DNA of 64,000 nt from positions 85,249-149,248 of the IMG/VR virus record IMGVR_UViG_3300042691_026427; one strand, written 5' to 3'. A program made the translations under genes and the position numbers. Each line of letters begins with the position of its first letter. Within the stretch, counting starts at the first letter, position 1. Shown here one piece after another: positions 21,641-39,919 of this stretch. Below the pieces are notes generated by a model. It had not been told where the DNA came from. It made no database searches and saw nothing but the letters and a program-made list of their open reading frames with translations. This DNA is from a virus.

Positions 21641-21671
21641 GTGTGTTTCATTAGTGTGTTACTATAAGACA

Positions 21672-21700
21672 ATTATACAACATTTTGAGCAGTTTGTCAA
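21672..21700 (-). promoter_or_regulatory. sigma70 promoter for ligase-infA
   Basis: TTGACA-N17-TATAAT on the minus strand. Confidence 0.8.
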
Positions 21701-21703
21701 GCA

Positions 21704-23343: not shown

Positions 23344-23403
23344 AATAGAAACCTCGTTGTGTTCTATTATTTAGTCTGTTACGAAAATATGCCATATAGT
23401 TGA

Positions 23404-23814
23404 TTATGTCAGGTCAGCAATCATAAACTCTTCATCGAAATATTGACGAACATCTGGAACCATTCCTTGACTTGTGTCAAATTGCCATTGCCCAATGACT
23501 TCTAGTATTTGATTGTAAATTGTCGAGTTGTCTGTGTATCTTACAAAATATGGATCATTGCCGTATAACAGATCAGCATCGTCCAAATAGTCAATAGGAT
23601 CGCCACCAAAGTATTCCGATAACCAACGAGCGTAGCATATGCCTACCATGTAGCTTTTTGCAGGATAGATCCATCCGATATCTTTTTCAGTAAAATATCT
23701 TACAGCATTATTTGTTATGTCATCAGACAGCACAATTTCTTTGGTATTGAGATCGTCATCAAACACTTGATTGATCCGATGATAAACTTCTTGTCGTATT
23801 TTCCATTCTTTCAT
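23404..23814 (-). CDS. Hypothetical protein, last gene of the radical SAM operon
   Basis: Overlaps the upstream rSAM gene; 'WIYPAKSY.V.ICYA.WL...DPYF..Y'. Confidence 0.75.
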   Translation of the reverse strand: MKEWKIRQEVYHRINQVFDDDLNTKEIVLSDDITNNAVRYFTEKDIGWIYPAKSYMVGICYARWLSEYFGGDPIDYLDDADLLYGNDPYFVRYTDNSTIYNQILEVIGQWQFDTSQGMVPDVRQYFDEEFMIADLT

Positions 23815-24724: not shown

Positions 24725-25781
24725 TTACATAAGGTGTAGGATCTACTTTTCCAGTCAATCCGTTTGCTTCAATTATGAGAGGCGCTAGAGTTTTCATCTT
24801 AACACAATGAGCTTCTACCATATTGTGGTCTTTTAGATCTTTGATTGTTTTCTTGCAACCGTTGCATATTTGAAACATAGGGCAAGTCCAACAGCTCTGT
24901 TTTAAACTTTGTAATTCAGGTTGAAACTGTAAGGGAAATACTTTCTCCCCTTTCATTTCTTCTTCAAAGTTTATATTGTAGATCCGGTCATCACCAAATG
25001 CTCCGCAACTGTAATAATCGCCTGTAGGCTGCAAGGTTCTTATACCACTATCGCACGATCTGTTCTGAGGACAACTTGTGGCATATCCGTTCAAACGATT
25101 TACCATTTGTTTTGTGTTAAATTCCCATTCAGTTAACCCTTGTTGCCAAATTTTTACATATATTTCGTATATGTCAGCTAACATGTATGGTCTACCTTCT
25201 TGTCCCATAGTAATATTTTTAAATTTAACTGGAGGGCCACTGCTAAATGCATAATTGAGTTTACATTCAACATTCATTTCTTTTGCCAGCTCTACATTCT
25301 TAATTGCAAGATGTTGATTCTCTTCTGTAATTACTGTGATAAAATCAGGACGATATCCTATGCGCTCTAGCATCATATTGCTGACTGCCCAAAAGTCCTC
25401 TTCGCTGAATTCTGTTAGGTCTCCCTTAAGACGGCCGCCGCCATATTGGAAACTAGTTGTGACTCCTAGGCGAGGATGCTTAAACAGAGATTCCCACTTG
25501 GTAGGATTTTTATAAAATGGCCACAGATTACTTGTAAAACTGATAGTAGCTGTCGAGCCTATATTGTCTAAGTGTTCAATAAGTTTCCAATAATAATCTG
25601 GTGGCATCATTAAGGGGTCGCCGCCATTGACAATTATAGTTCGAGTTTCTGGAAATCTTTCTAAGAAACGAAAGATATATTCATGATCAAGCTCTGCAGA
25701 CTTATCTTCAGTAATGTTCGTGCTAGAACAAAATGTGCATTTAAAATTGCACCGTTCAGTTGGCTTGATTATTAGATCCAT
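24711..25781 (-). CDS. Radical SAM/SPASM enzyme
   Basis: CNFKCTFC, NGGDP, 'CPQNRSC...YSC...CWTCPMFQICNGC...C'. Confidence 0.92.
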   Translation of the reverse strand: MDLIIKPTERCNFKCTFCSSTNITEDKSAELDHEYIFRFLERFPETRTIIVNGGDPLMMPPDYYWKLIEHLDNIGSTATISFTSNLWPFYKNPTKWESLFKHPRLGVTTSFQYGGGRLKGDLTEFSEEDFWAVSNMMLERIGYRPDFITVITEENQHLAIKNVELAKEMNVECKLNYAFSSGPPVKFKNITMGQEGRPYMLADIYEIYVKIWQQGLTEWEFNTKQMVNRLNGYATSCPQNRSCDSGIRTLQPTGDYYSCGAFGDDRIYNINFEEEMKGEKVFPLQFQPELQSLKQSCWTCPMFQICNGCKKTIKDLKDHNMVEAHCVKMKTLAPLIIEANGLTGKVDPTPYVNEHE

Positions 25782-27426
25782 ATTCTACTATTTCTTCAAA
25801 GAGGTTATTATAGATTAACTGCTCGTTTGAATTTATAAATTCTTCGATTATTTCTAATCTATTTTTTCCATTTATTTTTGTTATATCCTTAGCAGCAGTT
25901 TCGTAATTTAGTGTATCTTTTACATCGTTGTATATCTCTTTAAAAGAACTAATGTTATTCATAGCGGTCCAACAATATTCAAGAAATGTCCGAACATCTG
26001 GTAAAACATCTTTTAAGTTTTTCCAAAGTTTCCTGACTAATGTATCTGATGCAAAAGACATAATAAACATTTGAATGTTATCTTCTAATGTATAAGAGTT
26101 ACAACTGGATATAGTTTTAAAATAATTTTTACGATTTTTATAAAGGCCGCTTGAAATAAAAGAAATTCCTTCTTCTACGGTTTGTGTGAAAACTTCTACT
26201 AATTTTATTTTATTTAAAGCACAATAAAGATCATCAGTAATTTCACTATCTGGTAGAGCCATATAATCATAAAAACAATATTGAATATTATTGTTTTCTA
26301 AACTATTGTATATCACTAACAGTTCATCATAAAAATCATCCAATGTTGAACCCGGCATTGCTCTTATAAATTCCATAAAAGGAGATGATGCTCCAAAATT
26401 TTTTTCGCAGTATTCAATTAATTGTATTTTATCTATCTTGTTTAAATCAACACGTTTAGAAATCTTCATTGCATTATCACTTAAACTCTGAATACCTATA
26501 TTAGGAACTATCGATTTTCTCCCGTTTGACGTATCTGTTCCTGTTATTTTGAAAATCTCATCAATTATCTTAATTTTTTTATCTAGATTTGTTGTTTTAA
26601 ACAATGAAGAGTTTATAAATGACATTCCCAAGTCATATGCATATTTTAAGAAAAACAAGTCTCGTTCTAAGAATAATCCAAAGTTTGCATCAACATTATA
26701 AATTTGCTTATAACCTAATTTGTGCAGCACATCTATTTCTCTAATTACAATATCTTCAGGTTTCTTTAACACCTTAGTTCCAATGCCGCCACCCCATTCA
26801 CAATATGTACAATGAAATGGGCACCCTCTTGTAGTTTCTATTAATACGTGTGGAAATATTCCCTCAATATCGGCGTAGTCTTTTATCTTTTTTAAGTAAT
26901 CGAAATTTTCTTCATATGCACAAACATTGGGAAATTGCCATTCTCGGCATTTAGTACTTCTTAATTCAAAACTAATATCTTCTATGTTAGGTATTCCGTT
27001 ATTTTCAAAATAGGAATCTATAAAATCTTGCATGAATAGTTCGCCTGGTTTTGTTACCTGACAGAAATAATCATACATAGTTTTCTTTTTGAAGATATCT
27101 ATATCTTTCTGCCCTATTTGCGGACCGCCCAACACATTAACTATATTAGGGTTAATATTCTTTGCCAATCTTGCAACTTCATCTATGATATCAGTATTCC
27201 AAATGTAAGAACTGTATAAAATTATGTCAGCAGTATTAACTTCTTCCCATATTTCTTTACAACTTTGATATCTGTTATATTTGAATGGTGGCTCTAACCA
27301 TTCAACTAAATCTTTGTATTTTCCAAAATTATCATAGTATGATTTCATCCATATCCAAGTCACTGGACTGAATAGCTCAGTGTCAATGCTAGGAGGATTT
27401 ACAAAAGCTATTTTAATTTTTTTCAT
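25756..27426 (-). CDS. Cobalamin-binding (class B-like) radical SAM enzyme
   Basis: N-terminal B12-binding-like domain ('SSYIWN...NVLGGPQ'), 'IETTRGCPFHCTYCEWG', 'DANFG', 'IQS'. Confidence 0.88.
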   Translation of the reverse strand: MKKIKIAFVNPPSIDTELFSPVTWIWMKSYYDNFGKYKDLVEWLEPPFKYNRYQSCKEIWEEVNTADIILYSSYIWNTDIIDEVARLAKNINPNIVNVLGGPQIGQKDIDIFKKKTMYDYFCQVTKPGELFMQDFIDSYFENNGIPNIEDISFELRSTKCREWQFPNVCAYEENFDYLKKIKDYADIEGIFPHVLIETTRGCPFHCTYCEWGGGIGTKVLKKPEDIVIREIDVLHKLGYKQIYNVDANFGLFLERDLFFLKYAYDLGMSFINSSLFKTTNLDKKIKIIDEIFKITGTDTSNGRKSIVPNIGIQSLSDNAMKISKRVDLNKIDKIQLIEYCEKNFGASSPFMEFIRAMPGSTLDDFYDELLVIYNSLENNNIQYCFYDYMALPDSEITDDLYCALNKIKLVEVFTQTVEEGISFISSGLYKNRKNYFKTISSCNSYTLEDNIQMFIMSFASDTLVRKLWKNLKDVLPDVRTFLEYCWTAMNNISSFKEIYNDVKDTLNYETAAKDITKINGKNRLEIIEEFINSNEQLIYNNLFEEIVEYGSNNQAN

Positions 27427-28475
27427 TAGTTATATTTTAACACATTTTCTTCGTCGAGTCTATTAAAAAATTCTCTAAACAGACATTCGTCATTGCGTTC
27501 CAATTTTGCCCAATCAGCTTGCACAAAACATCTAAATGAGCAACGATCAAACCATTTACATCCCAAGCATTTGTTGCGTTCAAGATGCGCTTCTATAATA
27601 TTGCTGTTAGAAGAAAAATTAACCGGAGTTAGAAAATCTTCAGGCTCTGTCTTTACATAACGACAAGTTACTTCTCTACCTGACGGAAGTATAGTAGTCT
27701 TGTTCATCGAATAACAAGTCATCTTATTACGACTGTTTTCCAATAGATCTTTTACGGGATAAATGTTGGGATAATTCTTGGCAATATACATCATACAATC
27801 CAACATTTCCTGTTCACTAGGCATCATCTTATCTGCAGACAATTCTGGAACATAATAATCAAAATACAATGTATATTTTTTATACAGTGTATCTATAAAA
27901 AATTTGTCTTGGTTGCGTAATATCTTTCTAATAGCCGGAGCAGTGAGTACAAATCCAATAACAGTGATCCAATCTCCAAATATTTTTAAGTTATTTTCAA
28001 ATTGTAATGATCTGTTTAAATTAAAACCTCTGCCTGCAAAGTCATAAGATGTCGAGATATATGCATTATTTCCCACAGCTCGCATACGAGTTATTAAGTC
28101 AATTACACGTTGACTCTTGTTGAATATCAAATTAGTTACCCAATTAAATCTAACAATCTTGTTGTTGAGGTTAACCCAATCATTTATTTTTGAATAGAAT
28201 TCCCAATAAGATTCAAATGTGTTATCTGGCACTAGATCATTAAAAATCTCTCCACCCATGACGTTTACAATATGGGAATCCTTATCAGATGCCGTCATGA
28301 AATCTATAACTTGCTGAGCCTTATCAACAATACTGTTAAGTTCCATTCCTTCTGTAGAATCGTGATCTTGTCCGCAAAATGCACAACTTAGATTGCAAAA
28401 TTCAAATAGATGCAACTCGATTTCAGATGAATCGGGTACCTTATCTCTTAATACATGTTTTAGAAAATCACTCAT
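27426..28475 (-). CDS. Radical SAM enzyme with C-terminal Cys cluster
   Basis: CNLSCAFC, MGGEI, 'CLGCKWFDRCSFRC...C'. Confidence 0.9.
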   Translation of the reverse strand: MSDFLKHVLRDKVPDSSEIELHLFEFCNLSCAFCGQDHDSTEGMELNSIVDKAQQVIDFMTASDKDSHIVNVMGGEIFNDLVPDNTFESYWEFYSKINDWVNLNNKIVRFNWVTNLIFNKSQRVIDLITRMRAVGNNAYISTSYDFAGRGFNLNRSLQFENNLKIFGDWITVIGFVLTAPAIRKILRNQDKFFIDTLYKKYTLYFDYYVPELSADKMMPSEQEMLDCMMYIAKNYPNIYPVKDLLENSRNKMTCYSMNKTTILPSGREVTCRYVKTEPEDFLTPVNFSSNSNIIEAHLERNKCLGCKWFDRCSFRCFVQADWAKLERNDECLFREFFNRLDEENVLKYN

Positions 28476-29813: not shown

Positions 29814-30553
29814 AATTTACAAACTTCAGACAATAAAATATCTTTTGCCCATCTAATAGGAATATGTTTAGATACATCTCTATTAGATGCAATAACTAGT
29901 GAGTTATCATGAGCCAATAAGCATTCTTCTACAGTACGATCTGACATAGTTAATGTGCCAATATCTTTTTCAAAACTTAATGCTGCTACTAAATTTGCGT
30001 AATTGAATAGTTTATATAAGTTTTCTCCATATATATTTTCTACATACTGTTTTATTTCTAGGAAGTTTATGGGCACAGCTAGAGTATGTGTATCTCTTAG
30101 CATATCGTATCCCATTAATAACTGATCACTAGTAAATCTTATCAATGATCCCATAAAGAAATATGTAGTGTTCTGTTCAATTGACTTCACGGGCTTATCT
30201 ATTTCAAGGAGTGCAATATCGAACTGAGACGCACTGGTCATCCACTTTAAATATCCTTGGTCAATAATTTCGTATACTGCACTATCAGACCTAGATTTAT
30301 TACGACTGTCTAGAGTACTGTGACGAATTTTACAATAAGATACCCAGTCTGATCTAGAATAGCGTAATCCAGTAGCTAGTTGACCAAAATAAACAGACAA
30401 CATTCCACTTATCGACAAGTGTCCTGGCTCATAATTTCTATCACCTAATGTAAATCTATAAAATCCTGGAAAGAAATCCCCAGAAGATAAAATTACCTTT
30501 GCAAATTCTTCGTCTGTAATATCTCTAGCTAGATATATTAAATCAATTGCCAT
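29810..30553 (-). CDS. Hypothetical protein in the rSAM operon
   Basis: Overlap-coupled ORF, 247 aa. Confidence 0.7.
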   Translation of the reverse strand: MAIDLIYLARDITDEEFAKVILSSGDFFPGFYRFTLGDRNYEPGHLSISGMLSVYFGQLATGLRYSRSDWVSYCKIRHSTLDSRNKSRSDSAVYEIIDQGYLKWMTSASQFDIALLEIDKPVKSIEQNTTYFFMGSLIRFTSDQLLMGYDMLRDTHTLAVPINFLEIKQYVENIYGENLYKLFNYANLVAALSFEKDIGTLTMSDRTVEECLLAHDNSLVIASNRDVSKHIPIRWAKDILLSEVCKL

Positions 30554-31646
30554 ACGGAAGTGTACCCATTGCGTTTACTACTTCAAGGGCATTCTTTGCA
30601 ACTAGACAATCTTTTACATTATGAACATCCATTAGATGCAAAATACCACGATCAACACACGATCCTAAGAAAGGGCAGTCACCACATTCAGTCTTATCTC
30701 CGACATTAGAATACTGTGCTAATTGAACTGTCTGTTCAAAATTTTCAAAGTCTGTAGCGTGATGATTAGGTGTTGGAATTTTTAAGTCATCAATAAAACT
30801 AGCATATCGTTCATACAGTAATGGTGAGTAATAAAATTCTCCATTCTTCCAATTGTATTGTTTTTCAACTAGCGAATCAGATAGTCGTCCAAACGAAAAT
30901 CTTAGATAGTTATTTTTTTCATTAGTTACTACAGAATCATTAAACATTTTTTTAATTCGTTCTGCTGAATTAAAAAATTCTTCTGTAGTTAATTTCTCGT
31001 CTTTTCTTCCAAAAGAAAAATTAAAATCAATTGTGGTTTCGAATAAATGATTTACTCTCTTGTGTAGGTAATCATAATTTTTTAAGAGATCAGATATTTT
31101 AGTATTATCATAGTCGTAAACGTTCATAATGCCAAATGATCTTAGCTTTGTAGGCCAGTTCATCAATCGAATTACTTCTTCTTGATTTTTCTTAATTGTT
31201 TCTAAGTATTTGTCATTTTCTATCTGTTCAGGTTCGATAATGACATTGATTTCTAATTCGAGATTTGAATAATGATCTCTCAACACATCGGCAATTAAAC
31301 TGGCCTTGCTGATGTCTAAGTAAGTTGTTTGAAAAGATAATCTTTTAAATTTATTGAATATCTCTATAATTCTCTTGTCTGTTAGTAATGCATATGCATT
31401 TTTTGCTGAAAGGAAATCAGTAGGGCCAACAAATGCAATGAACGGACTGTAATAATTGCCAGTGTTAAATGAATTTAAAACATTTTTTAAATCTTCATAG
31501 TGTGCATCTGTAAGAGGTTCTGCACCTTCTTTGTTTACATGACATCCTTTGCAATTCCACTGACAGCCATTTAATAATTCAAAATTTAAATTAAAATAAA
31601 ATGTATAGGAATCATTTAAATTACCAGAAGCAAGATAGGCATCCAT
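30543..31646 (-). CDS. Divergent radical SAM protein (PTD in place of the GGE motif) with C-terminal Cys cluster
   Basis: CQWNCKGC, 'VGPTDFL', 'CGDCPFLGSC...C'. Confidence 0.8.
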   Translation of the reverse strand: MDAYLASGNLNDSYTFYFNLNFELLNGCQWNCKGCHVNKEGAEPLTDAHYEDLKNVLNSFNTGNYYSPFIAFVGPTDFLSAKNAYALLTDKRIIEIFNKFKRLSFQTTYLDISKASLIADVLRDHYSNLELEINVIIEPEQIENDKYLETIKKNQEEVIRLMNWPTKLRSFGIMNVYDYDNTKISDLLKNYDYLHKRVNHLFETTIDFNFSFGRKDEKLTTEEFFNSAERIKKMFNDSVVTNEKNNYLRFSFGRLSDSLVEKQYNWKNGEFYYSPLLYERYASFIDDLKIPTPNHHATDFENFEQTVQLAQYSNVGDKTECGDCPFLGSCVDRGILHLMDVHNVKDCLVAKNALEVVNAMGTLPYGN

Positions 31647-32366
31647 TTATTCTACTCCAAATACTTCTTCCGGATTTAGCGGAATTTCTTTGTTTATCAT
31701 TTGATACAATAAGGGAACAAACATATTTAAATCATTATTATAGTAGTCAAATAACGATTTTCCCTTAAACATGTGTGCTTCAAATTGTTGAGTAAAATAC
31801 GTTAAACTTAAAGGTCTGTCTACTGAAAAGTATATTTCTAAAAAGCCTGGCAAACTAAAAAGATTAACAACATTTAATCCAACATAATGGGGATCATCAA
31901 TATTTTCAAAGTTCTCTTTAACATTAAGTTCTGCGTTTAAGTCTTCAAAACTTTTAATTAGAAACAACATAGTAGAATCAATAAAATGAATCCAACGACC
32001 TACTAAACTTTCATTCTTAGTAATAAATTCTTCACACTCTTCTTTGGATAGCAAGCTCTTTCCATAATTTGCATCAGGATAAATGGCTTGTAAGATAATT
32101 TGAGCCGCAGCAACATTCAGATATGCAATGTTCGAAACACTGTTCCCCCCAAAATAAGCTTCAATTAATTCAAACTTTTGTTCTTTGGTTACTGACTCAT
32201 TTAGAACCAAGTCAGAAGGAATATCTAAATTTGAGAGGTATACTAACAGTACTTTTCCTTGAATTTTTGACTGTTGGTAATCTACCATAAAGAATGTATT
32301 TTTATCTTTAAAGTACTCTTTGATTTGATCAATTGGTATTGGTGCAATCGTCTGAACGTAATTCAT
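31647..32366 (-). CDS. Hypothetical protein in the rSAM operon
   Basis: 'TIAPIPID..K.YF.DK...F..DY..SK..GK..LVYLSNLDIP'; coupled to its neighbours. Confidence 0.72.
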   Translation of the reverse strand: MNYVQTIAPIPIDQIKEYFKDKNTFFMVDYQQSKIQGKVLLVYLSNLDIPSDLVLNESVTKEQKFELIEAYFGGNSVSNIAYLNVAAAQIILQAIYPDANYGKSLLSKEECEEFITKNESLVGRWIHFIDSTMLFLIKSFEDLNAELNVKENFENIDDPHYVGLNVVNLFSLPGFLEIYFSVDRPLSLTYFTQQFEAHMFKGKSLFDYYNNDLNMFVPLLYQMINKEIPLNPEEVFGVE

Positions 32367-33480
32367 TATAATTTTTCCTAAGTTCTGTTAAATTTTGTTT
32401 TGCTTTTGTTTCGTATAGTTGTATAAAGGTAGATTTGTTATTTCTAATCCTCGATATAACTTTTTTCGACAACGGGCATTCATCGCTGTCATCAAACAGA
32501 CTTGCATCACAATTTCCGCCGCAAATATCATAATGTTCACATGTGAAGCACATTTCATGTTGTGTCATTTCGGCTAATTTATTTATAATGACATCTACGG
32601 CCTTGGTTTGAAATGTATCCCAGTCGTTTACCATTTCATCAACTGTAGATACAGGTTCAACATAAGTCTTGTCGGGGCAAAATCCAACAGTACCATTTGG
32701 ATTTAACGTAAATGTTCTTTTATCGCAACAATTACATTTACAATCAAACATTTGACCGCTCAATAGAGTTTTGGTGAATAGATCTACTTGTGGTAAGCAC
32801 CAAGTAGTTTCATTATGTTGGTAATATTCAACCAAAGTATCTAACCAATTTGCCCATTTGATATTATTTGGTTTTAAACTTCTTGTCTGTTCATCAAACG
32901 TAGTGAGCAATTCAAAGTCTATAGAATCAACTCCATCAAATAGTTTTACAATTTCGAGAGGATCATAATTTAAAAGATATTTCTGTGCTGTGATAGATAT
33001 ATGCACTTTTATACCTGCATCTATTAATTTTTTTAAATTACCAAAGAATAAATCTTCTTGCTCATGTTTTTTATTAATTGCAATAGATCCAAATCTTATA
33101 TCAGCGTCCCAACTTACTCCAATAGTTGATCTATATTCATCCTTAATAAATTGAATAAATGTATCGTCTACCTTATAGAGTAAATTGGTTTGGGGTACAA
33201 TGTCCATCGGCATTGAGCCAAAAGTATTTCTTATTATTTCATTTACTTTAACTAAATGTTCGTAAGGTGATAAAAATGTCTCGCCACCATGTATGTAAAA
33301 AGTAGCCTTGGCAGGATCAACATTTTTTTTAATTGAGGTTAGAAATTTTTCAATGTAACCTAAATCAGTAAGCATATAGGGATCTTTGTCTCCTAATGTA
33401 AAACAGTGAGTACAATTTAAATTGCAACCCTGTATCACTCTTAGATAGATTACATTGAATTCGTTTGAAAAAACGTTCAT
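32329..33480 (-). CDS. Radical SAM/SPASM enzyme
   Basis: CNLNCTHC, HGGET, 'CKCNCC...FCP...CFTCEHYDICGGNC...CP'. Confidence 0.92.
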   Translation of the reverse strand: MNVFSNEFNVIYLRVIQGCNLNCTHCFTLGDKDPYMLTDLGYIEKFLTSIKKNVDPAKATFYIHGGETFLSPYEHLVKVNEIIRNTFGSMPMDIVPQTNLLYKVDDTFIQFIKDEYRSTIGVSWDADIRFGSIAINKKHEQEDLFFGNLKKLIDAGIKVHISITAQKYLLNYDPLEIVKLFDGVDSIDFELLTTFDEQTRSLKPNNIKWANWLDTLVEYYQHNETTWCLPQVDLFTKTLLSGQMFDCKCNCCDKRTFTLNPNGTVGFCPDKTYVEPVSTVDEMVNDWDTFQTKAVDVIINKLAEMTQHEMCFTCEHYDICGGNCDASLFDDSDECPLSKKVISRIRNNKSTFIQLYETKAKQNLTELRKNYNELRSDDCTNTN

Positions 33481-34349
33481 AACTTCGGCTTGCTTGCCAC
33501 AATAAAATAATAGTTAAGTTTATTGTTTTTATGATTTTCTATAAAATATTCTTCAATGCCACTTTTAAGTTCCCACTGAGATCTCAATTCCCAATAAGGT
33601 ACCAAATCTTTAGTTCTATCTTCAGTAAAAATTAAGTTTAAGCCTGAGTTAACTATTGCAGTTTCGTATTCATTAATACCATGCATGGTAGATGCGTAAT
33701 GATCGTTAATAGGTTCAATAAATTCATTAAAATTATTAGTGTCTAGATTGTCGTTAAAACACCAAGTGGCAATTACAAAGCGGCCACCGGGTTCTAAAAC
33801 TCTGTATACTTCCTTAAACAACATGTCAAGTTCTAATGCATATTGAGTAACTTCGCAGCAATATGCATGACTAAAAGTAGCATCAGCATAGGGAATACTT
33901 AGAAAATTAGCCTGTCTAACTTCTGCTCTATCTTGTAAATTTCTTTTTTCTATTTCGTCTTTACAAAAATTAGTTTGATACTCAGTTAAATTTACACCAT
34001 CGACTTTGACATTTGAAAACTTTTCTATAATCCTAAACATGGTGCCTCCGCGTCCGCAGCCCAAGTCAATGACTCGTTGTGGTGTACCAAATAGTTTATC
34101 AAACTGTAAAAATGTTATTAAGTGACTAGTCAGTTTGTTTTCTTGTCGTTGGACTTCTGCTGTAATTTCTTCTGTAGTTGCAGTAGTAGCATCTATTTCA
34201 GTAGGGCCTAAGCCAAAGTGATGATGAACAAAACCATCAACTGCTTGTAGCAAGTTTCTATCATTCTTTTTATTGTTATAATAATCAAATACCGCAGTAC
34301 TAAGCGTGTTTTGAGTTTGGGTATGATCGTTGTTAAATTTTGTATACAT
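33477..34349 (-). CDS. SAM-dependent methyltransferase resembling geranyl diphosphate 2-C-methyltransferase
   Basis: 'VDGFVHHHFGLG', 'DLGCGRGGTM', 'INDHY...H...EY', 'PYWELR.....SGIE..FIE' match the GPPMT family signature as recalled. Confidence 0.8.
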   Translation of the reverse strand: MYTKFNNDHTQTQNTLSTAVFDYYNNKKNDRNLLQAVDGFVHHHFGLGPTEIDATTATTEEITAEVQRQENKLTSHLITFLQFDKLFGTPQRVIDLGCGRGGTMFRIIEKFSNVKVDGVNLTEYQTNFCKDEIEKRNLQDRAEVRQANFLSIPYADATFSHAYCCEVTQYALELDMLFKEVYRVLEPGGRFVIATWCFNDNLDTNNFNEFIEPINDHYASTMHGINEYETAIVNSGLNLIFTEDRTKDLVPYWELRSQWELKSGIEEYFIENHKNNKLNYYFIVASKPKL

Positions 34350-34970
34350 TTAAATTTCCAGTAGTGCTTTTGCGTCTGTTGCAAAAGAATATCGTGTGCC
34401 AATAAAAGGTTTTGCCCTATGCCAAACATCCGACGCCATTACTATCATAGTATACGGGATAGGAGCATATTTGTAAACCGGATTTAAATTTTCAGGCAAC
34501 CAAACATGTGATAACGGGTTTTCTTTTAAATCTTCATAGAATTCAAAACATCCGTTATCCATTCCAATAGTATCATCTTGTTTGATATATAATACTGTGG
34601 TCACGTCACCGATTTCATCTGCTCTTAAAAAAGGTTGCCAGTGACGATGTATACGTTGGCCTTGCCAACTGTTAGGAGTGTTGAGCCATGAATCCTTGTC
34701 TAGATAATAGTTCTGGCCTTTGCCAGCAAATCTAGGATGCACCGTATCTAGAAAATCAAAAATAATGCTGTCTATTACAGCTTCAAACATCTTCACTTCT
34801 GGTGTATTTGTTTCCCAGACGTTTAATTTGTTTTTTTCATCATCGGGTCCCAAAAAATACATTTGCGTATTGTCAATTAACGAATTACAAAATGGTTCTA
34901 TAAGTTCTTTGTAATCATTTAAATCATATATCATTGCATTAAAGTTAGGAACTTTAAATTTGTTTGTCAA
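34350..34970 (-). CDS. 2OG-Fe(II) oxygenase-like protein
   Basis: 'IHRH...TVLYI...GCFEF...WHRAKPF.G.RYSFA' double-stranded beta-helix pattern. Confidence 0.75.
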   Translation of the reverse strand: MTNKFKVPNFNAMIYDLNDYKELIEPFCNSLIDNTQMYFLGPDDEKNKLNVWETNTPEVKMFEAVIDSIIFDFLDTVHPRFAGKGQNYYLDKDSWLNTPNSWQGQRIHRHWQPFLRADEIGDVTTVLYIKQDDTIGMDNGCFEFYEDLKENPLSHVWLPENLNPVYKYAPIPYTMIVMASDVWHRAKPFIGTRYSFATDAKALLEI

Positions 34971-35662: not shown

Positions 35663-36715
35663 TTAGTAAAGTCTAAATGGAGCCAAATCTGCTGTTAAAT
35701 TTTGTCTCTTTTTTCTATAGCAATAAGTTGAAAATATTTGATTAGATTTTTCTCTAAATAATTCAAATGTATAAAGACACCCAAAGTTTCTATTGATGTC
35801 TCGATGTAGTAATCCTTCCCAATCTTCAGCCATAAGCATTTGGTTTACTTCAAACATATCTTCATTACCTGTATGATCGGGCACCCATATTCTTTCTAAG
35901 GAATGCCATTGATTAACAAGATTGTTGTAATCATAGTTAGAAGTAATGTAGGAAGGTTCTGCTGAGAAATTCTCATCAACCATCCAATTTAACGTTGAGC
36001 TGTTTTTCAATTGGTCTTCGACGTTACCTATTTCAAAGTTGCTGTCAGGGTCTATTACACCCATGTCTAAGAATCCAAACATCGTTTCTAATCTTAGTTG
36101 CTCCAACTCATCTCGCCAGTTGTCAATACTAATGATTCTAACACGGTCTAGTATTTCTTCTTTGCATAGACTTTCTTCACCATGATATAGATAGTCGGGC
36201 AAAAGATATTCGAACGAAACATCCTGTTTATTAATGACATTTCTTAAAAAATTAGAAACTGGTTGAGCATCGTATATAACTTTGAATTCTTCGAATGATT
36301 TCATCTTAAAAGTATCTCTTACCATTTGATGTCGCGTATCGGGTGCATTAACTTGTATATAGGATCTTACTCGCACACTTTCAACCATTGATTTATACAG
36401 GAGGTAAACATCTTGCTCTGAAGCATATTGAAATATACTTTTTGCATATTGTATTAACAATCTCTCAGTAACATCGGTTTTTAAATAGGCGATAAGTTTG
36501 TGATCAGCTTCGTACATATATTGCCAAAATTGTTCAACATCGTTTTCAAAATTGTTTGCCAATAACTCGTCAAATGTGCCAACTGACGGCAGTATACAAA
36601 TATCTGTTGGCATTGGAAAGAGATTGTATAAATCGGTTGCCATTAACATTTTGTAACCAATACTGTCGAATTTATAATCAAATTCTAAATAAGCTCTTTT
36701 AAATAAGTGAAACAT
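35663..36715 (-). CDS. Hypothetical protein (350 aa); paralog of 28881..29813
   Basis: ATG at 36715 overlaps the upstream TAA (TAATG); starts MFHLFKRAYL. Confidence 0.75.
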   Translation of the reverse strand: MFHLFKRAYLEFDYKFDSIGYKMLMATDLYNLFPMPTDICILPSVGTFDELLANNFENDVEQFWQYMYEADHKLIAYLKTDVTERLLIQYAKSIFQYASEQDVYLLYKSMVESVRVRSYIQVNAPDTRHQMVRDTFKMKSFEEFKVIYDAQPVSNFLRNVINKQDVSFEYLLPDYLYHGEESLCKEEILDRVRIISIDNWRDELEQLRLETMFGFLDMGVIDPDSNFEIGNVEDQLKNSSTLNWMVDENFSAEPSYITSNYDYNNLVNQWHSLERIWVPDHTGNEDMFEVNQMLMAEDWEGLLHRDINRNFGCLYTFELFREKSNQIFSTYCYRKKRQNLTADLAPFRLY

Positions 36716-37377
36716 TATCTTCTTCCTCTTGATCCGTGGCAATTATTATGGCACGATGAATGACACACACGTAAATCAACTGTTCCTATTGAACCTCTTA
36801 GTGCAGTAACTGCGGCAGCTAAATTAGTATAAAAATTGTTGATATTGGCTGCAGAAATAGTAGCATTTGTACTTGGTTCAGATGATACGAACCCTACAGA
36901 TTGCAAATAATTATTATTAAGATGGGCTTGGCCATAAGTTAATAAAACTGTTCCGGAGAAAAAGGGGATGTTTGCATTGTCTGACGGTACGCCAGTTTGA
37001 GTATATTGACCGTTAAAATATTGAGTATAATAAAGGCCCCAAACAGCTGGACGTAATCTAGTAGTAGCATTGGCAAATGCTTTGCACATATTAACAATTA
37101 AACTGGCGTTTATTGTCAAACCGGATGCTCCTGAACCAGGTAGATTAGAAGTCGTTGGATATGCGTATGTATTCGTACCTAACTCACTTAACCTTGCAGA
37201 GAGGTATGCTCCTGTCCAGCCGATAACAGTACCGTTGTCCCACATTCTAACGTTAATTACTGGAACGTTGTAGTAGTGTATGCTTCCACTAGGGTCCATT
37301 CGCGAGGTATTCATCACTGTTGCAATAAAGTCATTAACTACGCTGGCTTTGGTTATAACTTGTCCTGTAGATGCCAT
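36715..37377 (-). CDS. Candidate substrate of the rSAM cluster: virion-like protein with C-terminal CHSSCHNNCHGSRGRR
   Basis: S/T/N/G/A-rich body with three 'I.(A/K)..+.N' repeats, then (CHxx)3-RGRR; sits between rSAM genes. Confidence 0.7.
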   Translation of the reverse strand: MASTGQVITKASVVNDFIATVMNTSRMDPSGSIHYYNVPVINVRMWDNGTVIGWTGAYLSARLSELGTNTYAYPTTSNLPGSGASGLTINASLIVNMCKAFANATTRLRPAVWGLYYTQYFNGQYTQTGVPSDNANIPFFSGTVLLTYGQAHLNNNYLQSVGFVSSEPSTNATISAANINNFYTNLAAAVTALRGSIGTVDLRVCHSSCHNNCHGSRGRR

Positions 37378-37390
37378 TTATCCGTTCCTT

Positions 37391-38392
37391 TTATTTAATA
37401 TCCAAAAAACAACCCATGTTAAAATCTCTTGCTATAGGAAAATACCCTTTTCCCATGCAGTGGGTTAAATTTTTACAATTGACACATTTGTCTAGTATCA
37501 CGTTATTTATATCATCTATACTGCTGTAAGTTTTAATAAAACCTTCGTAATTTGGAGTCAGCACTCTAAATCGAGGATTATCTATAAAAACGTATTCATC
37601 AAAAGGAATAATAGGAGTTAAAAAAATATCACCCGGTGACCCTAAAAAAGTAAATGCAGGTTTTCGCAACAGTGTTCTGTCGTTGTATTGTTTTGTTGCA
37701 TTCTCTGTACCTAAATAATGATCAGTTATGTCATGTATGGTTCTAATGCTTTCTTGCAACATGTTTGTTTTTTTCTCCAAACTTATATCTGGATTATACA
37801 AAAATGTAAAATTTAGTTCAATTATCTCATCATCGGATAAAAAATCTAACATTTGGTTTAGTTTAACTTTTTCCTTATCGGACAATGTAAATCCGGTATT
37901 GATTGCCAAGTTGATTATAACATCATCGCCGTATGTTTCTTTAATCTTTGCAATTCTAGATTTTATTGTTATTTGATAGTTTATGTCAAACAGTTTTGCT
38001 ATCAATAGATTGACCTGCAATTCAATTTTGGCCAATGGATTATTGTTTTTTACAATTTTAAAAAATTCTGGATCAAACCCTGTTTCTAACGTAGATGCCA
38101 CACCCACATACTCAAACAATGAAACTGTTTCTGCAAATTCTGCATTTTCAAACAGTTTGTAATTGTCCTTGTTATCAAATATATCAGTTGGCAATAGATA
38201 ACAAGTTTCCAATTCATAACCGTTTTTCAACAAGTCTTTGGCCAACGATAACGAAGATGTAAAATCGTTGTAATTATTTTTAGTTCTGTTGTAAAAACAT
38301 CCCCGGCAATCCATGGAACAGTCATTCAATACCAGCATTCTAAATTCTGCCAGTTTGTATGGGTCACCATATCTTTCGTAGGAATTATACAT
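37391..38392 (-). CDS. Divergent radical SAM protein (PTD in place of GGE) with C-terminal Cys cluster
   Basis: CSMDCRGC, 'LLPTDIF', 'CVNCKNLTHC...C'. Confidence 0.8.
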   Translation of the reverse strand: MYNSYERYGDPYKLAEFRMLVLNDCSMDCRGCFYNRTKNNYNDFTSSLSLAKDLLKNGYELETCYLLPTDIFDNKDNYKLFENAEFAETVSLFEYVGVASTLETGFDPEFFKIVKNNNPLAKIELQVNLLIAKLFDINYQITIKSRIAKIKETYGDDVIINLAINTGFTLSDKEKVKLNQMLDFLSDDEIIELNFTFLYNPDISLEKKTNMLQESIRTIHDITDHYLGTENATKQYNDRTLLRKPAFTFLGSPGDIFLTPIIPFDEYVFIDNPRFRVLTPNYEGFIKTYSSIDDINNVILDKCVNCKNLTHCMGKGYFPIARDFNMGCFLDIK

Positions 38393-39440
38393 GATGTACA
38401 GCCTTGATAGGAATTGTAATTCTCTTTGGCTTTGCCAATGCTTTCATCAAACTTTTCGGTGCTCCGCATATATCGTCCTGCCATTCTAGTTGATGACAAT
38501 CGCTGTTGCAGTATTCAAATACTTCGCAAGTATAACATCTAGGATCCCTAGCTCTTTCGCAAGAAATGTTTTCTAATCTCTGGGGACTTGTTAACAAAGA
38601 GGCAATGTCATCATCAATGTGGCCAAATTGATGTTCTGGGGCGCTATTGGGGCAACCAGATATAGTTCCATCAGCATTTAGGGTAAACAGCTTTTCTTCA
38701 CAGTCCCTGCAAAATGTAGCGCCATTGGTAAGTCCAATTTCAAATTTAGCATAGATGCTTTCCATAAATTCGTTACTGAACCATGACCTTGCGTCATGCT
38801 CTACTATCTGATGGTGCATCTTTAAAAACCACTGATCTTGTTCTAAGTTTGTGGGAAATATATGCAAATTTTCTCTTGCGCTGCCGTTCATAGTGAGACG
38901 CTCAAGTGCTAGATCAGTAACGCCTAAATCTCTTATCCATTCCAGCAGATCAATAGGTTCCATGGCAACGGTGCCTCGGGTAACACTGACAAACAGTTTG
39001 ACCTCAACTCCTAGATCAATTAGGGTCTGCAGATTCTTTCGCCATAAGTCGTATTGTTTAGGACTGGCAAATCTTATGTCTGGATCCCAGCTAGTTCCTA
39101 TGCGGCCTCCCAATGGCCCCATGATAAAATCAATCTTGTCCTGTGTTAACTTATAAGTTAAGTTGGTAGTGACACCCCAGCTGCGACTAGCCCATAATTC
39201 CTGGCATTGATCATACACATACTGCATCGATGATATATCTGCTAAAAAGGGTTCGCCGCCGTGAAACTCTAAATGTACATGGGGCGCACTAGCTGTTTCA
39301 ACATGTAGACGTTTAAGCCAATCGGCAACCTTTACATGATCCCAATATATCTTTGCGCCTTTGCTGCCGCTAGTAAAACAGTGCAGGCAATTGAGATTAC
39401 AGGTTTCTGTAGTCTTGAGGTAAATCATTAATTCTTTCAT
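38385..39440 (-). CDS. Radical SAM/SPASM enzyme
   Basis: CNLNCLHC, FHGGEP, 'CRDC...GCPN...CYTCEVFEYCNSDC...C'. Confidence 0.93.
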   Translation of the reverse strand: MKELMIYLKTTETCNLNCLHCFTSGSKGAKIYWDHVKVADWLKRLHVETASAPHVHLEFHGGEPFLADISSMQYVYDQCQELWASRSWGVTTNLTYKLTQDKIDFIMGPLGGRIGTSWDPDIRFASPKQYDLWRKNLQTLIDLGVEVKLFVSVTRGTVAMEPIDLLEWIRDLGVTDLALERLTMNGSARENLHIFPTNLEQDQWFLKMHHQIVEHDARSWFSNEFMESIYAKFEIGLTNGATFCRDCEEKLFTLNADGTISGCPNSAPEHQFGHIDDDIASLLTSPQRLENISCERARDPRCYTCEVFEYCNSDCHQLEWQDDICGAPKSLMKALAKPKRITIPIKAVHHV

Positions 39441-39448
39441 CAGAATAT

Positions 39449-39919
39449 TTAATAGCCTACGCTAAGGGCCCAAGTATTTTGTACACTGCTGACTCGATGT
39501 AGATAGCCCCGTGGTATTATCACATGCTGACCCGGATGCAATACAACCTTTTTATTTCGAATGTAAACTGTCTTTCGACCCTTTATTACATGCAGTAATA
39601 CATTTACATCGTCTTTGTGCCAATCAAAACTGTAGCCAAATTTTTGATTGACAAATAGGTGTATGTTTTTAAAATTTATCTTGTTAAAACAAGAACTGAC
39701 AGCGTGATCTGTTTCAAGGCCTTCAACTTTTATCACAGGATAGGATTTATGCTGTTCTATCCATTGAGAAAAAGTAAAAAAATCTTTAACTATGCAATCA
39801 CTGTGTTTATAGTCAGGGTGACCTATAACTTTTATTAAACCCTGTTCATACTTGGAATAATCTAACAGCTGATCGGCCAGTAATTTACTTACTGTCTTGG
39901 TCAGGCAGTGGTCCGCCAT
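39449..39919 (-). CDS. JmjC/cupin-type oxygenase
   Basis: 'FDWHKDDVNVLLHVIKGRK...L.PGQ...IPRG.LHRV' gives an HxD...H triad. Confidence 0.8.
   Translation of the reverse strand: MADHCLTKTVSKLLADQLLDYSKYEQGLIKVIGHPDYKHSDCIVKDFFTFSQWIEQHKSYPVIKVEGLETDHAVSSCFNKINFKNIHLFVNQKFGYSFDWHKDDVNVLLHVIKGRKTVYIRNKKVVLHPGQHVIIPRGYLHRVSSVQNTWALSVGY

What the first reader, a model, noticed from the sequence alone, without database searches (positions are those of the whole stretch)
36715..37377. Candidate substrate: fibre-like body with terminal C-H-S-S-C-H-N-N-C-H-G-S-R-G-R-R
Seen: the last 16 residues (36715-36765) hold three CHxx units and a basic end. The preceding ~200 aa are low-charge with three repeats (GQVITKASVVN, GLTINASLIVN, NATISAANINN) like those of phage structural proteins. 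Known: His-Xaa-Ser repeats and aromatic-X-X motifs are rSAM/SPASM targets (His-Xaa-Ser systems, triceptide cyclophanes); Cys-rich cores are sacti/ranthipeptide targets. HSS, HNN and HGS fit these patterns. Inference: a RiPP-like core displayed on a virion protein rather than released from a leader.
Basis: partly seen in the sequence, partly recalled or inferred. Interest (0 to 1): 0.88.

Follow-up and report, generated by a model that had tools for sequence, protein, structure and literature searches.

The report
Phage protein with rSAM-linked Cys-His tail
A small folded protein of this large marine phage ends in an almost unchanging 16-residue Cys-His tail that is always encoded beside the same radical-SAM enzymes in hundreds of phages. 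Its counterpart is found in purified particles of a cultured phage, so the tail is probably rebuilt chemically on a virus-particle protein, a maturation step I found described in no paper.

Summary
The tail is real. ORF 36715-37377 (minus strand, 220 aa) ends VCHSSCHNNCHGSRGRR.

- **Conservation:** a profile of the family finds 806 clusters (50% identity) in public data. All 92 homologs from an unconstrained search keep (Cys-His-x-x)x3-S-R-G-R-R at the extreme C-terminus, while the bodies are about 26% identical.
- **Body:** it is not fibre-like. The "three repeats" are matched by 40 of 100 shuffles. AlphaFold gives a compact alpha/beta domain (pLDDT 84.5) with a disordered tail and no PDB relative.
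- **Link to enzymes, both directions:** 114 of 120 viral loci found through the tail hold radical-SAM genes like the window's. 75 of 80 loci found through the upstream rSAM/SPASM enzyme have a tailed ORF starting right after it; the other five are cut short.
- **Spread:** T4-like marine, phiKZ-like (Ralstonia RSL2) and Rak2-like (Agrobacterium Atu_ph07) phages.
- **Virion evidence:** in Atu_ph07 the homolog is gp170, detected in virion preparations.

Best reading (0.6): a virion-associated protein whose tail is modified in place by the co-encoded enzymes; the chemistry is unknown. Rivals are a released peptide or cofactor, and an unmodified metal or disulfide site.

This scan has reported the same cassette in at least eight other genomes. 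No paper found describes it; the closest known system is the bacterial HXS defence system.

The parts
36715..37377 (-). Tail-bearing protein P0001 (220 aa): compact alpha/beta body plus disordered C-terminal tail
   Evidence: ORF and translation. 92 homologs. The family profile hits 806 clusters at 50% identity. AF2 model pLDDT 84.5, pTM 0.80. phrog_35144, unknown function.
36718..36765 (-). The (Cys-His-x-x)x3-Ser-Arg-Gly-Arg-Arg tail (residues 205-220), candidate modification site
   Evidence: Invariant columns in A1. Logo over 255 unique proteins. Synonymous codon variation. pLDDT below 50 for residues 211-213 and 215-220.
38385..39440 (-). rSAM/SPASM enzyme (CNLNCLHC, HGGE, CX2CX5CX3C); its family lies immediately upstream of the tailed gene in most loci (in this window one PTD-type gene intervenes). 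Most likely the first tail-modifying enzyme.
   Evidence: Pfam Radical_SAM; NCBIfam SPASM domain 32.1 bits against cut-off 27; PapB 3e-13; anSME 1e-12. phrog_1802 8e-68. Family alignment A3 has 60% mean column identity. Reverse test: 75 of 80 loci.
37391..38392 (-). Divergent 'PTD-type' rSAM-like protein (CSMDCRGC, no GGE) between the enzyme and the tailed gene
   Evidence: Translation. Homologs sit in the same position in L004, L022, L082 and several GTDB loci.
39449..39919 (-). Cupin / JmjC-like oxygenase that heads the conserved core
   Evidence: Pfam Cupin_2 1.5e-7, JmjC_2 0.0024. RSL2 ORF066 Cupin_2 5e-12, JmjC_2 1.6e-5. Present in 56 of 124 loci, usually directly upstream of the rSAM.
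35663..36715 (-). 350-aa unknown protein (phrog_36207); its ATG overlaps the tail gene's stop (AGATAATG)
   Evidence: Homologs follow the tailed gene in RSL2 and in L002-L004. Weak paralog of 28881-29813, E 2e-4.
31647..32366 (-). phrog_20767 protein (239 aa). In most other phages it is the gene directly after the tailed gene. Confident fold, no known relatives, no conserved Cys or His.
   Evidence: phrog_20767 2e-61. Found in 86 of 124 loci. A2 alignment. AF2 pLDDT 94.3. No PDB, Pfam or NCBIfam relative.
32329..33480 (-). Second rSAM/SPASM enzyme
   Evidence: Pfam Radical_SAM 1.4e-6; NCBIfam YhhB 4.5e-12, anSME 2.6e-11, SPASM domain 28.7 bits against cut-off 27.
30543..31646 (-). Second PTD-type rSAM-like protein; this family forms arrays of 4-5 paralogs next to tandem ~127-aa tailed proteins in other phages
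23759..28475 (-). Four further rSAM genes that travel with the tail: 27426-28475, B12-binding 25756-27426, SPASM-type 24711-25781, and 23759-24724
   Evidence: Pfam. NCBIfam: KedN5-type B12 C-methyltransferase 3.5e-29; DynA/anSME-like for 24711-25781. Homologs in 67, 14, 43 and 31 of 124 loci respectively.
33477..34970 (-). Accessory tailoring genes present in a subset of loci: SAM methyltransferase (33477-34349) and 2OG-Fe(II) oxygenase (34350-34970)
   Evidence: The same pair occurs in L004.
37504..37511 (-). T4-type late-promoter-like TATAAATA, 134 nt upstream of the tailed gene's ATG (weak evidence)
   Evidence: One of only two exact copies in 64 kb. Three of the five minus-strand ATAAATA sites lie 11-27 nt before genes, two of them large fibre-like genes.

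Best explanation
ORF 36715-37377 encodes a small globular late protein that becomes part of, or is packaged with, the phage particle. Its disordered, invariant C-terminal tail, (Cys-His-x-Ser/Asn)x3-Arg-Gly-Arg-Arg, is the substrate of the co-encoded enzyme set.

Proposed sequence of events:
1. The tail is modified in the cytoplasm, before or during assembly, while still attached to the folded body.
2. The rSAM/SPASM enzyme at 38385-39440 probably acts first. Its family is the gene directly upstream of the tailed gene in most phages.
3. The cupin/JmjC-like oxygenase, the PTD-type rSAM-like proteins, further rSAM enzymes (one B12-dependent, methylase-like) and, in this phage, a 2OG oxygenase and a methyltransferase follow.
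4. The protein is not a leader that is cut away; the body is the carrier that places the modified tail in the virion.

Shown: invariance of the tail, two-way gene linkage, tight stop-start coupling, a globular body, and virion association of one cultured homolog.

Inferred: that the tail is modified at all, which residues are modified, and what the product does. The likeliest chemistry is radical-made C-S or C-C cross-links, or Cys-derived aldehyde or thioether groups, plus hydroxylation or methylation of His or Arg. The likeliest roles are covalent stapling to other virion components, metal binding or DNA binding.
For: (1) **Tail conservation.** All 92 homologs carry the tail. Eleven columns are invariant in A1 against 26% mean column identity. 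The profile search gives 806 clusters at 50% identity; 121 of 136 new representatives have the canonical tail and the other 15 keep the CH units: 12 keep all three, one has four (P0204), one has two (P0232), and one ends in a four-unit tail with an insertion before the basic end (P0236). Codons vary synonymously.

(2) **Linkage from tail to enzymes.** 114 of 120 IMG/VR loci found by the tail pattern hold rSAM-type ORFs homologous to the window's. Of the six without, three are 1.0-4.1 kb long, one has its tail at the very end of the locus and one is cut just past the tail's neighbours; the sixth (L027, 3.0 kb) was counted as short by length alone and its flanks were not examined. All 26 loci in GTDB genomes also hold them.

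(3) **Linkage from enzyme to tail.** Of 80 loci retrieved only through the rSAM38385 family, 75 have a (CHxx)3-tailed ORF on the same strand. It starts at median position 4022, right after the enzyme gene, which ends at about 4000-4040. The other five loci end at most 1.3 kb after the enzyme.

(4) **Enzyme versus substrate conservation.** The enzyme family is 60% identical on average and the substrate body 26%, as expected if the enzyme reads the constant tail.

(5) **Translational coupling.** 41 of 79 tailed genes have the next gene's ATG overlapping the stop codon. The window has AGATAATG.

(6) **Same core in three unrelated phage lineages.** T4-like marine (window), phiKZ-like RSL2, RSF1 and FLC6, Rak2-like Atu_ph07, and also pPa_SNUABM_DT01.

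(7) **Virion association.** Atu_ph07 gp170 is the tailed homolog: 296 aa, computed 31.89 kDa, identical to the mass in Table S5. It gave 8 unique peptides at 35% coverage, and was most abundant in gel band 1, where proteins of 75 kDa and more, up to 139 kDa, and one other small protein (gp321, 36 kDa) peak. The neighbouring gp169, gp171 and gp172 are not listed (PMC6102473).

(8) **Location in the genome.** The cassette lies among structural and fibre genes here and elsewhere.

(9) **Precedent.** In the HXS system, rSAM enzymes mature a folded protein with basic His-x-Ser repeats (PMC13128918).
Against: - No mass-spectrometric or biochemical evidence that any tail residue is modified.
- The Atu_ph07 particles were PEG-purified only. 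RecA-like, ssDNA-binding protein, ribonucleotide reductase and other non-structural proteins are also in that list, so 'virion-associated' is not proof of a structural role.
- The loading buffer listed in that paper has no reducing agent. The top-of-gel position of gp170 could therefore come from ordinary disulfides through unmodified tail Cys. One other small protein (gp321, 36 kDa) also peaks in band 1.
- Eight or more rSAM enzymes for a 16-residue tail is more than any simple scheme needs, so some may act on other substrates.
- No virion data exist for this phage or its T4-like relatives.
- The late-promoter-like element is a single 8-mer.
Confidence: 0.6

Rival explanations
1. The body is an oversized leader or scaffold. 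After modification the 16-residue tail, or part of it, is cut off and released as a peptide or cofactor-like molecule, as with PQQ, mycofactocin or pearlin-type C-terminal cores. The product would act in the infected cell, for example as a redox cofactor, metallophore or anti-defence compound.
For: An invariant core on a variable carrier resembles cofactor precursors (PqqA, MftA; established knowledge) more than antibiotic RiPPs. Many tailoring enzymes are present, including a B12-rSAM methylase-like protein, a methyltransferase and oxygenases. Tandem duplicated ~127-aa carriers occur in other phages, which would raise precursor dose.
Against: No protease or peptidase belongs to the conserved core. 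The body is a well-folded, conserved domain and not a short leader. The Atu_ph07 homolog's body is found in virion preparations at 35% coverage. The cassette sits among structural genes. The basic RGRR end looks like a handle kept on a protein.
Confidence: 0.15
2. The tail is not a substrate. It is an unmodified metal-binding site (Zn, Cu, Fe or Fe-S) or a disulfide-forming cross-linking handle on a virion or accessory protein, or an Fe-S donor or partner subunit for the enzymes. The rSAM enzymes would act on something else, such as fibre proteins, a small molecule or nucleic acid.
For: Three Cys plus three His in 12 residues is a plausible metal site (sequence). 156 of 255 family members have no other Cys. 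The Atu_ph07 gel buffer as listed has no reducing agent, so the high-mass gp170 could be disulfide-linked. Marine T4-like genomes rich in rSAM genes also carry Fe-S assembly genes (PMC5332604).
Against: A plain metal site would not need an obligate, adjacent, translationally coupled rSAM/SPASM gene in 75 of 75 testable loci. It also would not be expected to keep invariant Ser, Arg and Gly residues and an exact C-terminal position. SPASM-type enzymes characteristically act on peptide or protein substrates (established knowledge). The tail is predicted disordered and not part of a folded metal-binding module.
Confidence: 0.2
3. The ORF is not a real gene, or the tail is a chance low-complexity ending.
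For: None found.
Against: 806 homologous clusters. A confident fold. Synonymous codon variation under amino-acid conservation. Peptides of a homolog detected by MS.
Confidence: 0.01

Closest known systems
HXS antiphage system (HxsA matured by rSAM enzymes HxsB/HxsC with HxsD; Li et al., Nat Commun 2026, PMC13128918)
   Same: rSAM enzymes mature a folded protein, not a short leader peptide. The target region holds His-x-Ser units rich in basic residues. Several rSAM enzymes plus a small non-enzymatic partner are needed. The modified protein stays a protein and acts physically, by DNA binding in HXS.
   Different: HXS is bacterial (99.7% Pseudomonadota), a four-gene defence system with a periplasmic, peptidoglycan-anchored effector. 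Here the system is phage-encoded, lies beside structural genes and has up to about 8-12 rSAM genes. The unit is C-H-x-S with period 4 and an obligatory Cys, fixed at three copies at the extreme C-terminus and followed by RGRR. No HxsA or HxsD model matches, and the HxsB/HxsC models score 20-31 bits against cut-offs of 268-370.
Quinohemoprotein amine dehydrogenase gamma subunit QhpC cross-linked by the rSAM/SPASM enzyme QhpD (established knowledge)
   Same: A SPASM-type rSAM makes Cys-based thioether cross-links in a protein subunit that stays part of the final assembly.
   Different: The QhpC acceptors are Asp and Glu, and the tail has neither. The QhpD model (TIGR03906) scores 24 bits against a cut-off of 453. 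QhpC belongs to a bacterial enzyme, not a virus particle.
Anaerobic sulfatase-maturating enzyme (anSME) making formylglycine in the C/S-x-P/A-x-R motif (established knowledge)
   Same: It is an rSAM/SPASM enzyme acting on a Cys of a folded protein. The last tail unit, C-H-(G/S/T/A)-S-R, has Cys, a small residue at +2 and an invariant Arg at +4. anSME is among the best NCBIfam hits of three enzymes here.
   Different: Scores are 40-47 bits against a cut-off of 349. The body is not a sulfatase. Position +2 is mostly Gly or Ser, not Pro or Ala. The first two units have Cys, not Arg, at +4.
Sacti-, ranthi- and cyclophane-type rSAM RiPPs (PapB, SCIFF, CXXX-repeat, DynA/DarE, YhhB)
   Same: SPASM enzymes sit next to a Cys-rich or repeat-bearing substrate gene. 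The period-4 Cys spacing recalls the CXXX-repeat class.
   Different: There is no short leader, no RRE domain, no protease or exporter and no Asp/Glu or aromatic partner residues. The core is invariant and the carrier variable, the opposite of most RiPPs. All equivalog scores are far below their cut-offs.
Covalent virion stabilisation such as HK97 capsid 'chainmail' isopeptide bonds (established knowledge)
   Same: It would be a post-translational covalent chemistry that finishes a phage particle protein, if the cross-linking reading is right.
   Different: HK97 cross-links are autocatalytic Lys-Asn bonds in the major capsid protein and need no dedicated enzymes. Here a dedicated multi-enzyme radical cassette serves a small accessory protein.

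Membership tests
HXS system substrate HxsA (TIGR03979) | Match to the HxsA model: conserved domain followed by period-3 His-Xaa-Ser repeats | tested here: not met
   NCBIfam scan of P0001 gives no family at E <= 0.01. The tail has period 4 with Cys, three units, at the C-terminus.
HXS system enzymes HxsB/HxsC/HxsD (TIGR03978, 03977, 03976) | Equivalog-level matches to the paired rSAM maturases and the small partner | tested here: not met
   HxsB: 30.6 bits (38385-39440) and 21.1 bits (27426-28475) against cut-off 370. HxsC: 30.6 and 19.7 bits against cut-off 267.9. No HxsD hit for any of the 20 cluster ORFs scanned.
Radical SAM / SPASM superfamily (neighbouring enzyme 38385-39440) | CxxxCxxC cluster motif, GGE SAM motif, C-terminal CX2CX5CX3C auxiliary-cluster motif, SPASM domain model above cut-off | tested here: met
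   CNLNCLHC, HGGE and CYTCEVFEYCNSDC are in the translation. TIGR04085 scores 32.1 bits against cut-off 27.
Ranthipeptide (PapB-type) system | PapB equivalog enzyme and Cys-X3-Asp/Glu acceptor motifs in a short precursor | tested here: not met
   NF047865 scores 49.7 bits against cut-off 340. No Asp or Glu in the tail. The substrate is a 125-364 aa folded protein.
anSME / formylglycine system | anSME equivalog enzyme; sulfatase substrate with C/S-x-P/A-x-R | tested here: not met
   TIGR03942 scores 47.4, 43.2 and 39.6 bits against cut-off 349. No sulfatase domain in P0001. The last unit, C-H-[GSTA]-S-R, resembles the motif only in outline.
Classical RiPP precursor (leader + core, released product) | Leader recognised by an RRE or enzyme, protease or exporter in the cluster, product released | tested here: inconclusive
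   No peptidase, exporter or RRE family was found among the 20 cluster ORFs scanned. Several ORFs have no recognisable family, and release cannot be tested in silico.
Phage fibre / repeat-containing structural protein | Significant internal repeats or an elongated beta-helical or coiled-coil fold; match to fibre families | tested here: not met
   Repeats are not above shuffles (40 of 100). The AF2 model is a compact alpha/beta domain. No Pfam hit, and the only PHROG hit is phrog_35144 (unknown function), not a fibre family. The fold searches list no fibre match; they are inconclusive by nature.
Virion protein | Detection in purified particles | tested here: inconclusive
   Shown only for the homolog Atu_ph07 gp170, in PEG-purified particles. 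There are no data for this phage. RP31 ORF78, a first lead, is not a family member.

The most novel reading that the evidence does not exclude
Large phages of at least three unrelated lineages use a dedicated radical-SAM 'finishing kit' to turn the (Cys-His-x-Ser)x3-RGRR tail of a small particle protein into a new kind of reactive or cross-linked structure. This structure would covalently staple the protein to fibres or other virion parts, or bind metal or DNA. It would be an enzyme-made, radical-chemistry step of virion maturation with no described counterpart. It could also be a phage-side mirror of the bacterial HXS effector, which uses rSAM-modified His-x-Ser repeats against incoming phage DNA.
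Probability: 0.3. Interest if true: 0.92.

Novelty: new variant of a known kind. Interest (0 to 1): 0.8.

Why it matters
If the tail is modified in place, this is rSAM/RiPP-type chemistry used to finish a virus-particle protein. No paper I could search describes that. The cassette is not rare: the tailed protein has 806 clusters at 50% identity, and the enzyme has 370 relatives in IMG/VR. Genome papers so far list these genes as 'auxiliary' or Fe-S metabolism genes.

It gives a defined, 16-residue, invariant substrate for a set of uncharacterised rSAM families, including the 'PTD-type' proteins that lack the GGE motif and a confidently folded partner of unknown fold.

It can be tested directly in cultured phages (RSL2/RSF1, FLC6, Atu_ph07, pPa_SNUABM_DT01).

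It may also explain why jumbo and T4-like marine phages carry so many oxygen-sensitive Fe-S enzymes.

Tried and rejected
- **Fibre or repeat reading of the body:** rejected.
- **RP31 ORF78** (22.9 kDa virion protein near rSAM genes) as a second virion-proteome case: rejected. RP31 has a different rSAM cluster, and ORF78 has no tail.
- **Do tails lacking RGRR (ending ...CHGS[L/I]) lack the cupin?** This would have assigned Arg to the cupin. Only two short contexts were found. One has a fibre gene where the cupin would be; the other has a different hydroxylase-like cupin downstream. No conclusion.
- **Fold searches of the P0001 model:** Foldseek against PDB, best E 1.7. VIA-align wide, best Z 4.2. 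BFVD returned only uncharacterised phage proteins, mostly evident family members.
- **Fold and profile searches of the phrog_20767 partner:** PDB sequence profile, no hits. Foldseek best E 0.036. VIA best Z 4.6, over 51 residues only. Pfam and NCBIfam, nothing.
- **ESM Atlas look-ups** of the two unknown partners were uninformative: nothing usable, and PcfJ-like at 0.89, which is below the lead threshold.
- **Literature:** no paper holds the tail motif. Phage genome papers only list 'cupin, Fe-S oxidoreductase, radical SAM, 2OG oxygenase'.
- **tblastn with the bare tail** found nothing because of the low-complexity filter.
- Complex prediction, the look-up of sequencing runs and the atlas fold library. 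No binding prediction or expression check was made.
- **Megablast of 15 kb against cultured phages:** no match.
Full report
**1. The observation**

Window 36715-37377 (minus strand) is an ATG-started ORF of 220 aa (P0001). Its last 16 residues are C-H-S-S-C-H-N-N-C-H-G-S-R-G-R-R, followed by TAA. The stop codon overlaps the ATG of the next gene (AGATAATG).

The second half of the observation does not hold. The three 11-mers are the best-scoring triple in the body, but 40 of 100 shuffles of the same composition give an equal or better triple. An AlphaFold2 model built on 64 homologs (pLDDT 84.5, pTM 0.80) shows a compact alpha/beta domain with three long helices packed on a sheet. The three motifs lie at or just before the starts of the helices. 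Residues 211-220 of the tail are disordered. The body is not a fibre.

**2. The tail is under extreme selection**

- An unconstrained protein search returned 92 homologs of 166-241 aa. Every one ends in CH..CH..CH.SRGRR.
- In a 64-sequence alignment with 26% mean column identity, the three Cys, the three His and S-R-G-R-R are invariant.
- A profile search of 1.84 billion cluster representatives found 806 clusters (531 at E <= 1e-10).
- Of 136 new representatives, 121 have the canonical tail. The other 15 keep the CH units but vary the basic end or the unit count: twelve keep three units, for instance ending ...CHGS followed by one hydrophobic residue; one has four units (P0204); one has two (P0232); and one ends in a four-unit tail with an insertion before the basic end (P0236).
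- Over 255 unique proteins the consensus is (C-H-x-S)x3-R-G-R-R. Ser stands at 95%, 78% (otherwise Asn, as in this window) and 99.6% of the three fourth positions. Only two proteins have a fourth unit, and 156 have no other Cys. The Cys, His and Arg positions of the pattern-derived part of this set were fixed by the search pattern. The unconstrained homolog set shows the same result.
- Codons vary synonymously at every position, so the constraint is on the peptide.
- Body lengths range from about 125 to 364 aa, with modes near 127 and 185. The short class aligns to the C-terminal two thirds of the family profile.

**3. Linkage to radical-SAM enzymes, tested in both directions**

In the window the tailed gene sits inside a co-directional block:
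- a cupin/JmjC-like oxygenase (39449-39919);
- an rSAM/SPASM enzyme (38385-39440);
- a divergent 'PTD-type' rSAM-like protein (37391-38392);
- the tailed gene;
- an unknown 350-aa protein, a 229-aa unknown protein, a 2OG oxygenase and a methyltransferase;
- a second rSAM/SPASM enzyme, the phrog_20767 protein, and a second PTD-type protein;
- three further unknown ORFs (29810-30553, 28881-29813, 28468-28881);
- four more rSAM genes, one of them B12-binding.

Of these, 114 contain ORFs homologous to the window's rSAM-type genes. Of the six exceptions, three are only 1.0-4.1 kb long. One has its tail at the very end of the locus. One is cut just past the tail's neighbours. The sixth (L027, 3.0 kb) was counted as short by length alone and its flanks were not examined. 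The commonest order is cupin, rSAM/SPASM, tailed gene, phrog_20767, then three or four further rSAM genes. A second architecture has two tandem ~127-aa tailed genes followed by arrays of four or five PTD-type paralogs.

*From enzyme to tail.* An alignment of the upstream rSAM/SPASM family, used alone, retrieved 370 relatives. Of the best 80 loci, 75 have a tailed ORF on the same strand beginning right after the enzyme gene. The other five end at most 1.3 kb after the enzyme. I found no locus with enough flanking DNA that holds one without the other.

Two further points fit an enzyme that reads the constant tail. The enzyme family is much better conserved (60% mean column identity) than the body of its presumed substrate (26%). 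Stop-start overlap with the downstream gene is the rule, in 41 of 79 cases.

**4. Where it occurs**

- The window is the last 64 kb of a 149-kb IMG/VR virus record, estimated about 44% complete.
- Its 952-aa structural protein is about 42% identical to those of T4-like cyanophages.
- The same core occurs in the phiKZ-related Ralstonia/Burkholderia phages RSL2, RSF1, FLC6/8 and S13. There ORF066 is the cupin, ORF067 the rSAM and ORF068 the tailed protein, which ends VCHSSCHTSCHGSRGRR.
- It occurs in the Rak2-like Agrobacterium phage Atu_ph07, whose tail ends CHSSCHASCHNSRSRR.
- It occurs in Pseudomonas phage pPa_SNUABM_DT01, whose tail ends CHTSCHTSCHSARGRR.
- In species-representative prokaryote genomes the pattern hits 26 contigs, mostly 200-380 kb contigs binned into Bdellovibrionota MAGs. 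All carry the enzymes too. They may be jumbo-phage contigs; I did not test this.
- The cassette lies beside fibre or structural genes here and elsewhere. One tailed gene directly follows an ORF of more than 2,742 aa, and fibre chaperone domains lie next to two others.

**5. Virion evidence**

In the Atu_ph07 paper (PMC6102473), the gp numbering is anchored by gp180, the 13,350-bp structural gene. This makes the tailed gene gp170. My computed mass of 31.89 kDa equals the 31,89 kDa listed for gp170 in Table S5.

gp170 was identified in particle preparations with 8 unique peptides and 35% coverage. The neighbouring gp169 (phrog_20767 homolog), gp171 (rSAM) and gp172 (cupin) are absent from the list.

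gp170 was spread over bands 1-9 and was most abundant in band 1. That is where proteins of 75 kDa and more, up to 139 kDa, and one other small protein (gp321, 36 kDa) peak. Other ~30-kDa proteins peak in bands 7-8.

Caveats:
- The particles were PEG-purified.
- Some clearly non-structural proteins are also listed.
- The loading buffer as described contains no reducing agent.
- One other small protein behaves the same way.

All three Cys of gp170 lie in the tail. Whatever holds it in high-mass species, disulfide or otherwise, therefore probably involves the tail.

**6. What it most likely is**

The best-supported reading (confidence 0.6) is a small globular, virion-associated late protein whose tail is modified in place by the co-encoded enzymes.

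*Shown:* invariance of the tail, obligate two-way linkage, translational coupling, a folded body, and virion association of one homolog.

*Inferred:* that modification occurs, and its chemistry. Candidates that fit the enzyme types are:
- SPASM-made C-S or C-C cross-links;
- Cys-to-formylglycine at the last unit, whose C-x-small-x-R outline recalls the anSME motif;
- His or Arg hydroxylation by the JmjC-like cupin, as ribosomal oxygenases of that family do (established knowledge);
- C-methylation by the B12-rSAM.

None of the enzymes reaches a curated family cut-off, apart from the generic SPASM domain.

The universal partner phrog_20767 folds with pLDDT 94.3. It has no relative in PDB, Pfam or NCBIfam and no conserved Cys or His. 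I read it as an adaptor or chaperone rather than an enzyme, but this is an inference.

**7. Rivals**

- (a) The tail is released as a peptide or cofactor (0.15). In favour: an invariant core and many tailoring enzymes. Against: no protease in the core, and the body is found in particles.
- (b) The tail is an unmodified metal or disulfide site and the enzymes act elsewhere (0.2). In favour: the Cys3His3 composition and the non-reducing gel. Against: the 75-of-75 adjacency, and invariant non-ligand residues in a disordered tail.
- (c) It is not a gene (0.01).

**8. Comparison with what is known**

The closest described system is the bacterial HXS defence system. There, the rSAM enzymes HxsB/HxsC, with HxsD, mature the folded effector HxsA. 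HxsA carries basic His-x-Ser repeats, receives a +8 Da modification on SHRSS, and binds DNA. The phage system works like it in outline but is not a member: no HxsA or HxsD match, and the HxsB/HxsC scores are far below cut-off. It also differs in period, in the obligatory Cys, in position, in gene number and in host. QhpC/QhpD, anSME with sulfatase, and sacti/ranthipeptide systems share single features only.

Papers on these phages list the genes without interpretation. A marine virome paper noted a T4-like genome with 12 rSAM genes and read them as Fe-S metabolism. No paper holds the tail motif.

**9. Earlier notes of this scan**

After I had reached this reading, a word search of the scan's notes showed that follow-up agents had reported the same cassette in at least eight other genomes, with similar conclusions. 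That search gave me the HXS paper, which I then read and tested for membership myself. These notes are not independent evidence.

What this report contributes:
- the enzyme-to-tail reverse test;
- the synonymous-codon analysis;
- the count of 806 clusters, with the tail variants;
- the shuffle test that rejects the repeats;
- two confident models without known folds;
- the gel-band and buffer caveat for gp170.

**10. Verdict**

The tail and its conservation are confirmed. The fibre-like repeats are not. I rate it a new variant of a known kind (rSAM maturation of a protein substrate), in a setting not described before (a phage particle protein). Interest: 0.8.

Noticed in passing
window 37504-37511 and 32580-32587 (minus strand): These are the only two exact T4-type late-promoter octamers (TATAAATA) in 64 kb. 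They lie 134 nt upstream of the tailed gene and 221 nt upstream of the phrog_20767 gene. The other three minus-strand ATAAATA sites lie 11-27 nt before genes, two of them large fibre-like genes. This suggests extra late transcription of substrate and partner.
   Followed up: partly
L153 (Ralstonia phage RP31) 19173-19550, with ORF072-075 at 20788-25898: RP31 lacks the (CHxS)3 tail. It has a 125-aa protein ending ...RSHTHYSPDGSY just upstream of four CxxxCxxC genes. A 125-aa protein of the related phage RP12 gave a weak structural match to the P0001 body (BFVD E 0.098). This may be an analogous system with a different tail.
   Followed up: partly
L005, L021, L028, L045, L055, L074, L114 and others (IMG/VR): A second architecture: two tandem ~127-aa tailed proteins followed by arrays of four or five paralogous PTD-type rSAM-like genes, with the cupin and the other rSAM genes further along.
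   Followed up: partly
L127-L152 (GTDB species-representative genomes): 26 contigs carry the tail and the enzymes. Most are binned as Bdellovibrionota/Bacteriovoracaceae MAGs, and several are 200-380 kb. They may be jumbo-phage contigs mis-binned into predatory-bacteria MAGs, or phages of those bacteria.
   Followed up: no
window 33477-34349 (minus strand): A methyltransferase whose best NCBIfam match is geranyl diphosphate 2-C-methyltransferase (4e-50, 171 bits, cut-off 400). No terpene synthase is nearby. Only a subset of cassettes has it (also L004).
   Followed up: no
P0185, P0189, P0226, P0229, P0230; L155, L156: A sub-family whose tail stops right after the third unit (...CHGS followed by Leu or Ile) and lacks RGRR, yet is still flanked by the rSAM/SPASM enzyme and the phrog_20767 partner. 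Other variants insert one residue before the basic end (...CHSAGRGRR).
   Followed up: partly
L092 2225-10699 and 1650-2225: A tailed gene that directly follows an ORF of more than 2,742 aa (giant fibre-like protein) with no enzyme between them.
   Followed up: no
window 37391-38392 and 30543-31646 (minus strand): The PTD-type proteins keep CxxxCxxC and a C-terminal Cys cluster. They have no NCBIfam relative, and Pfam Radical_SAM scores only 0.0012 for one of them. They are an uncharacterised rSAM-like family that multiplies in some phages.
   Followed up: partly
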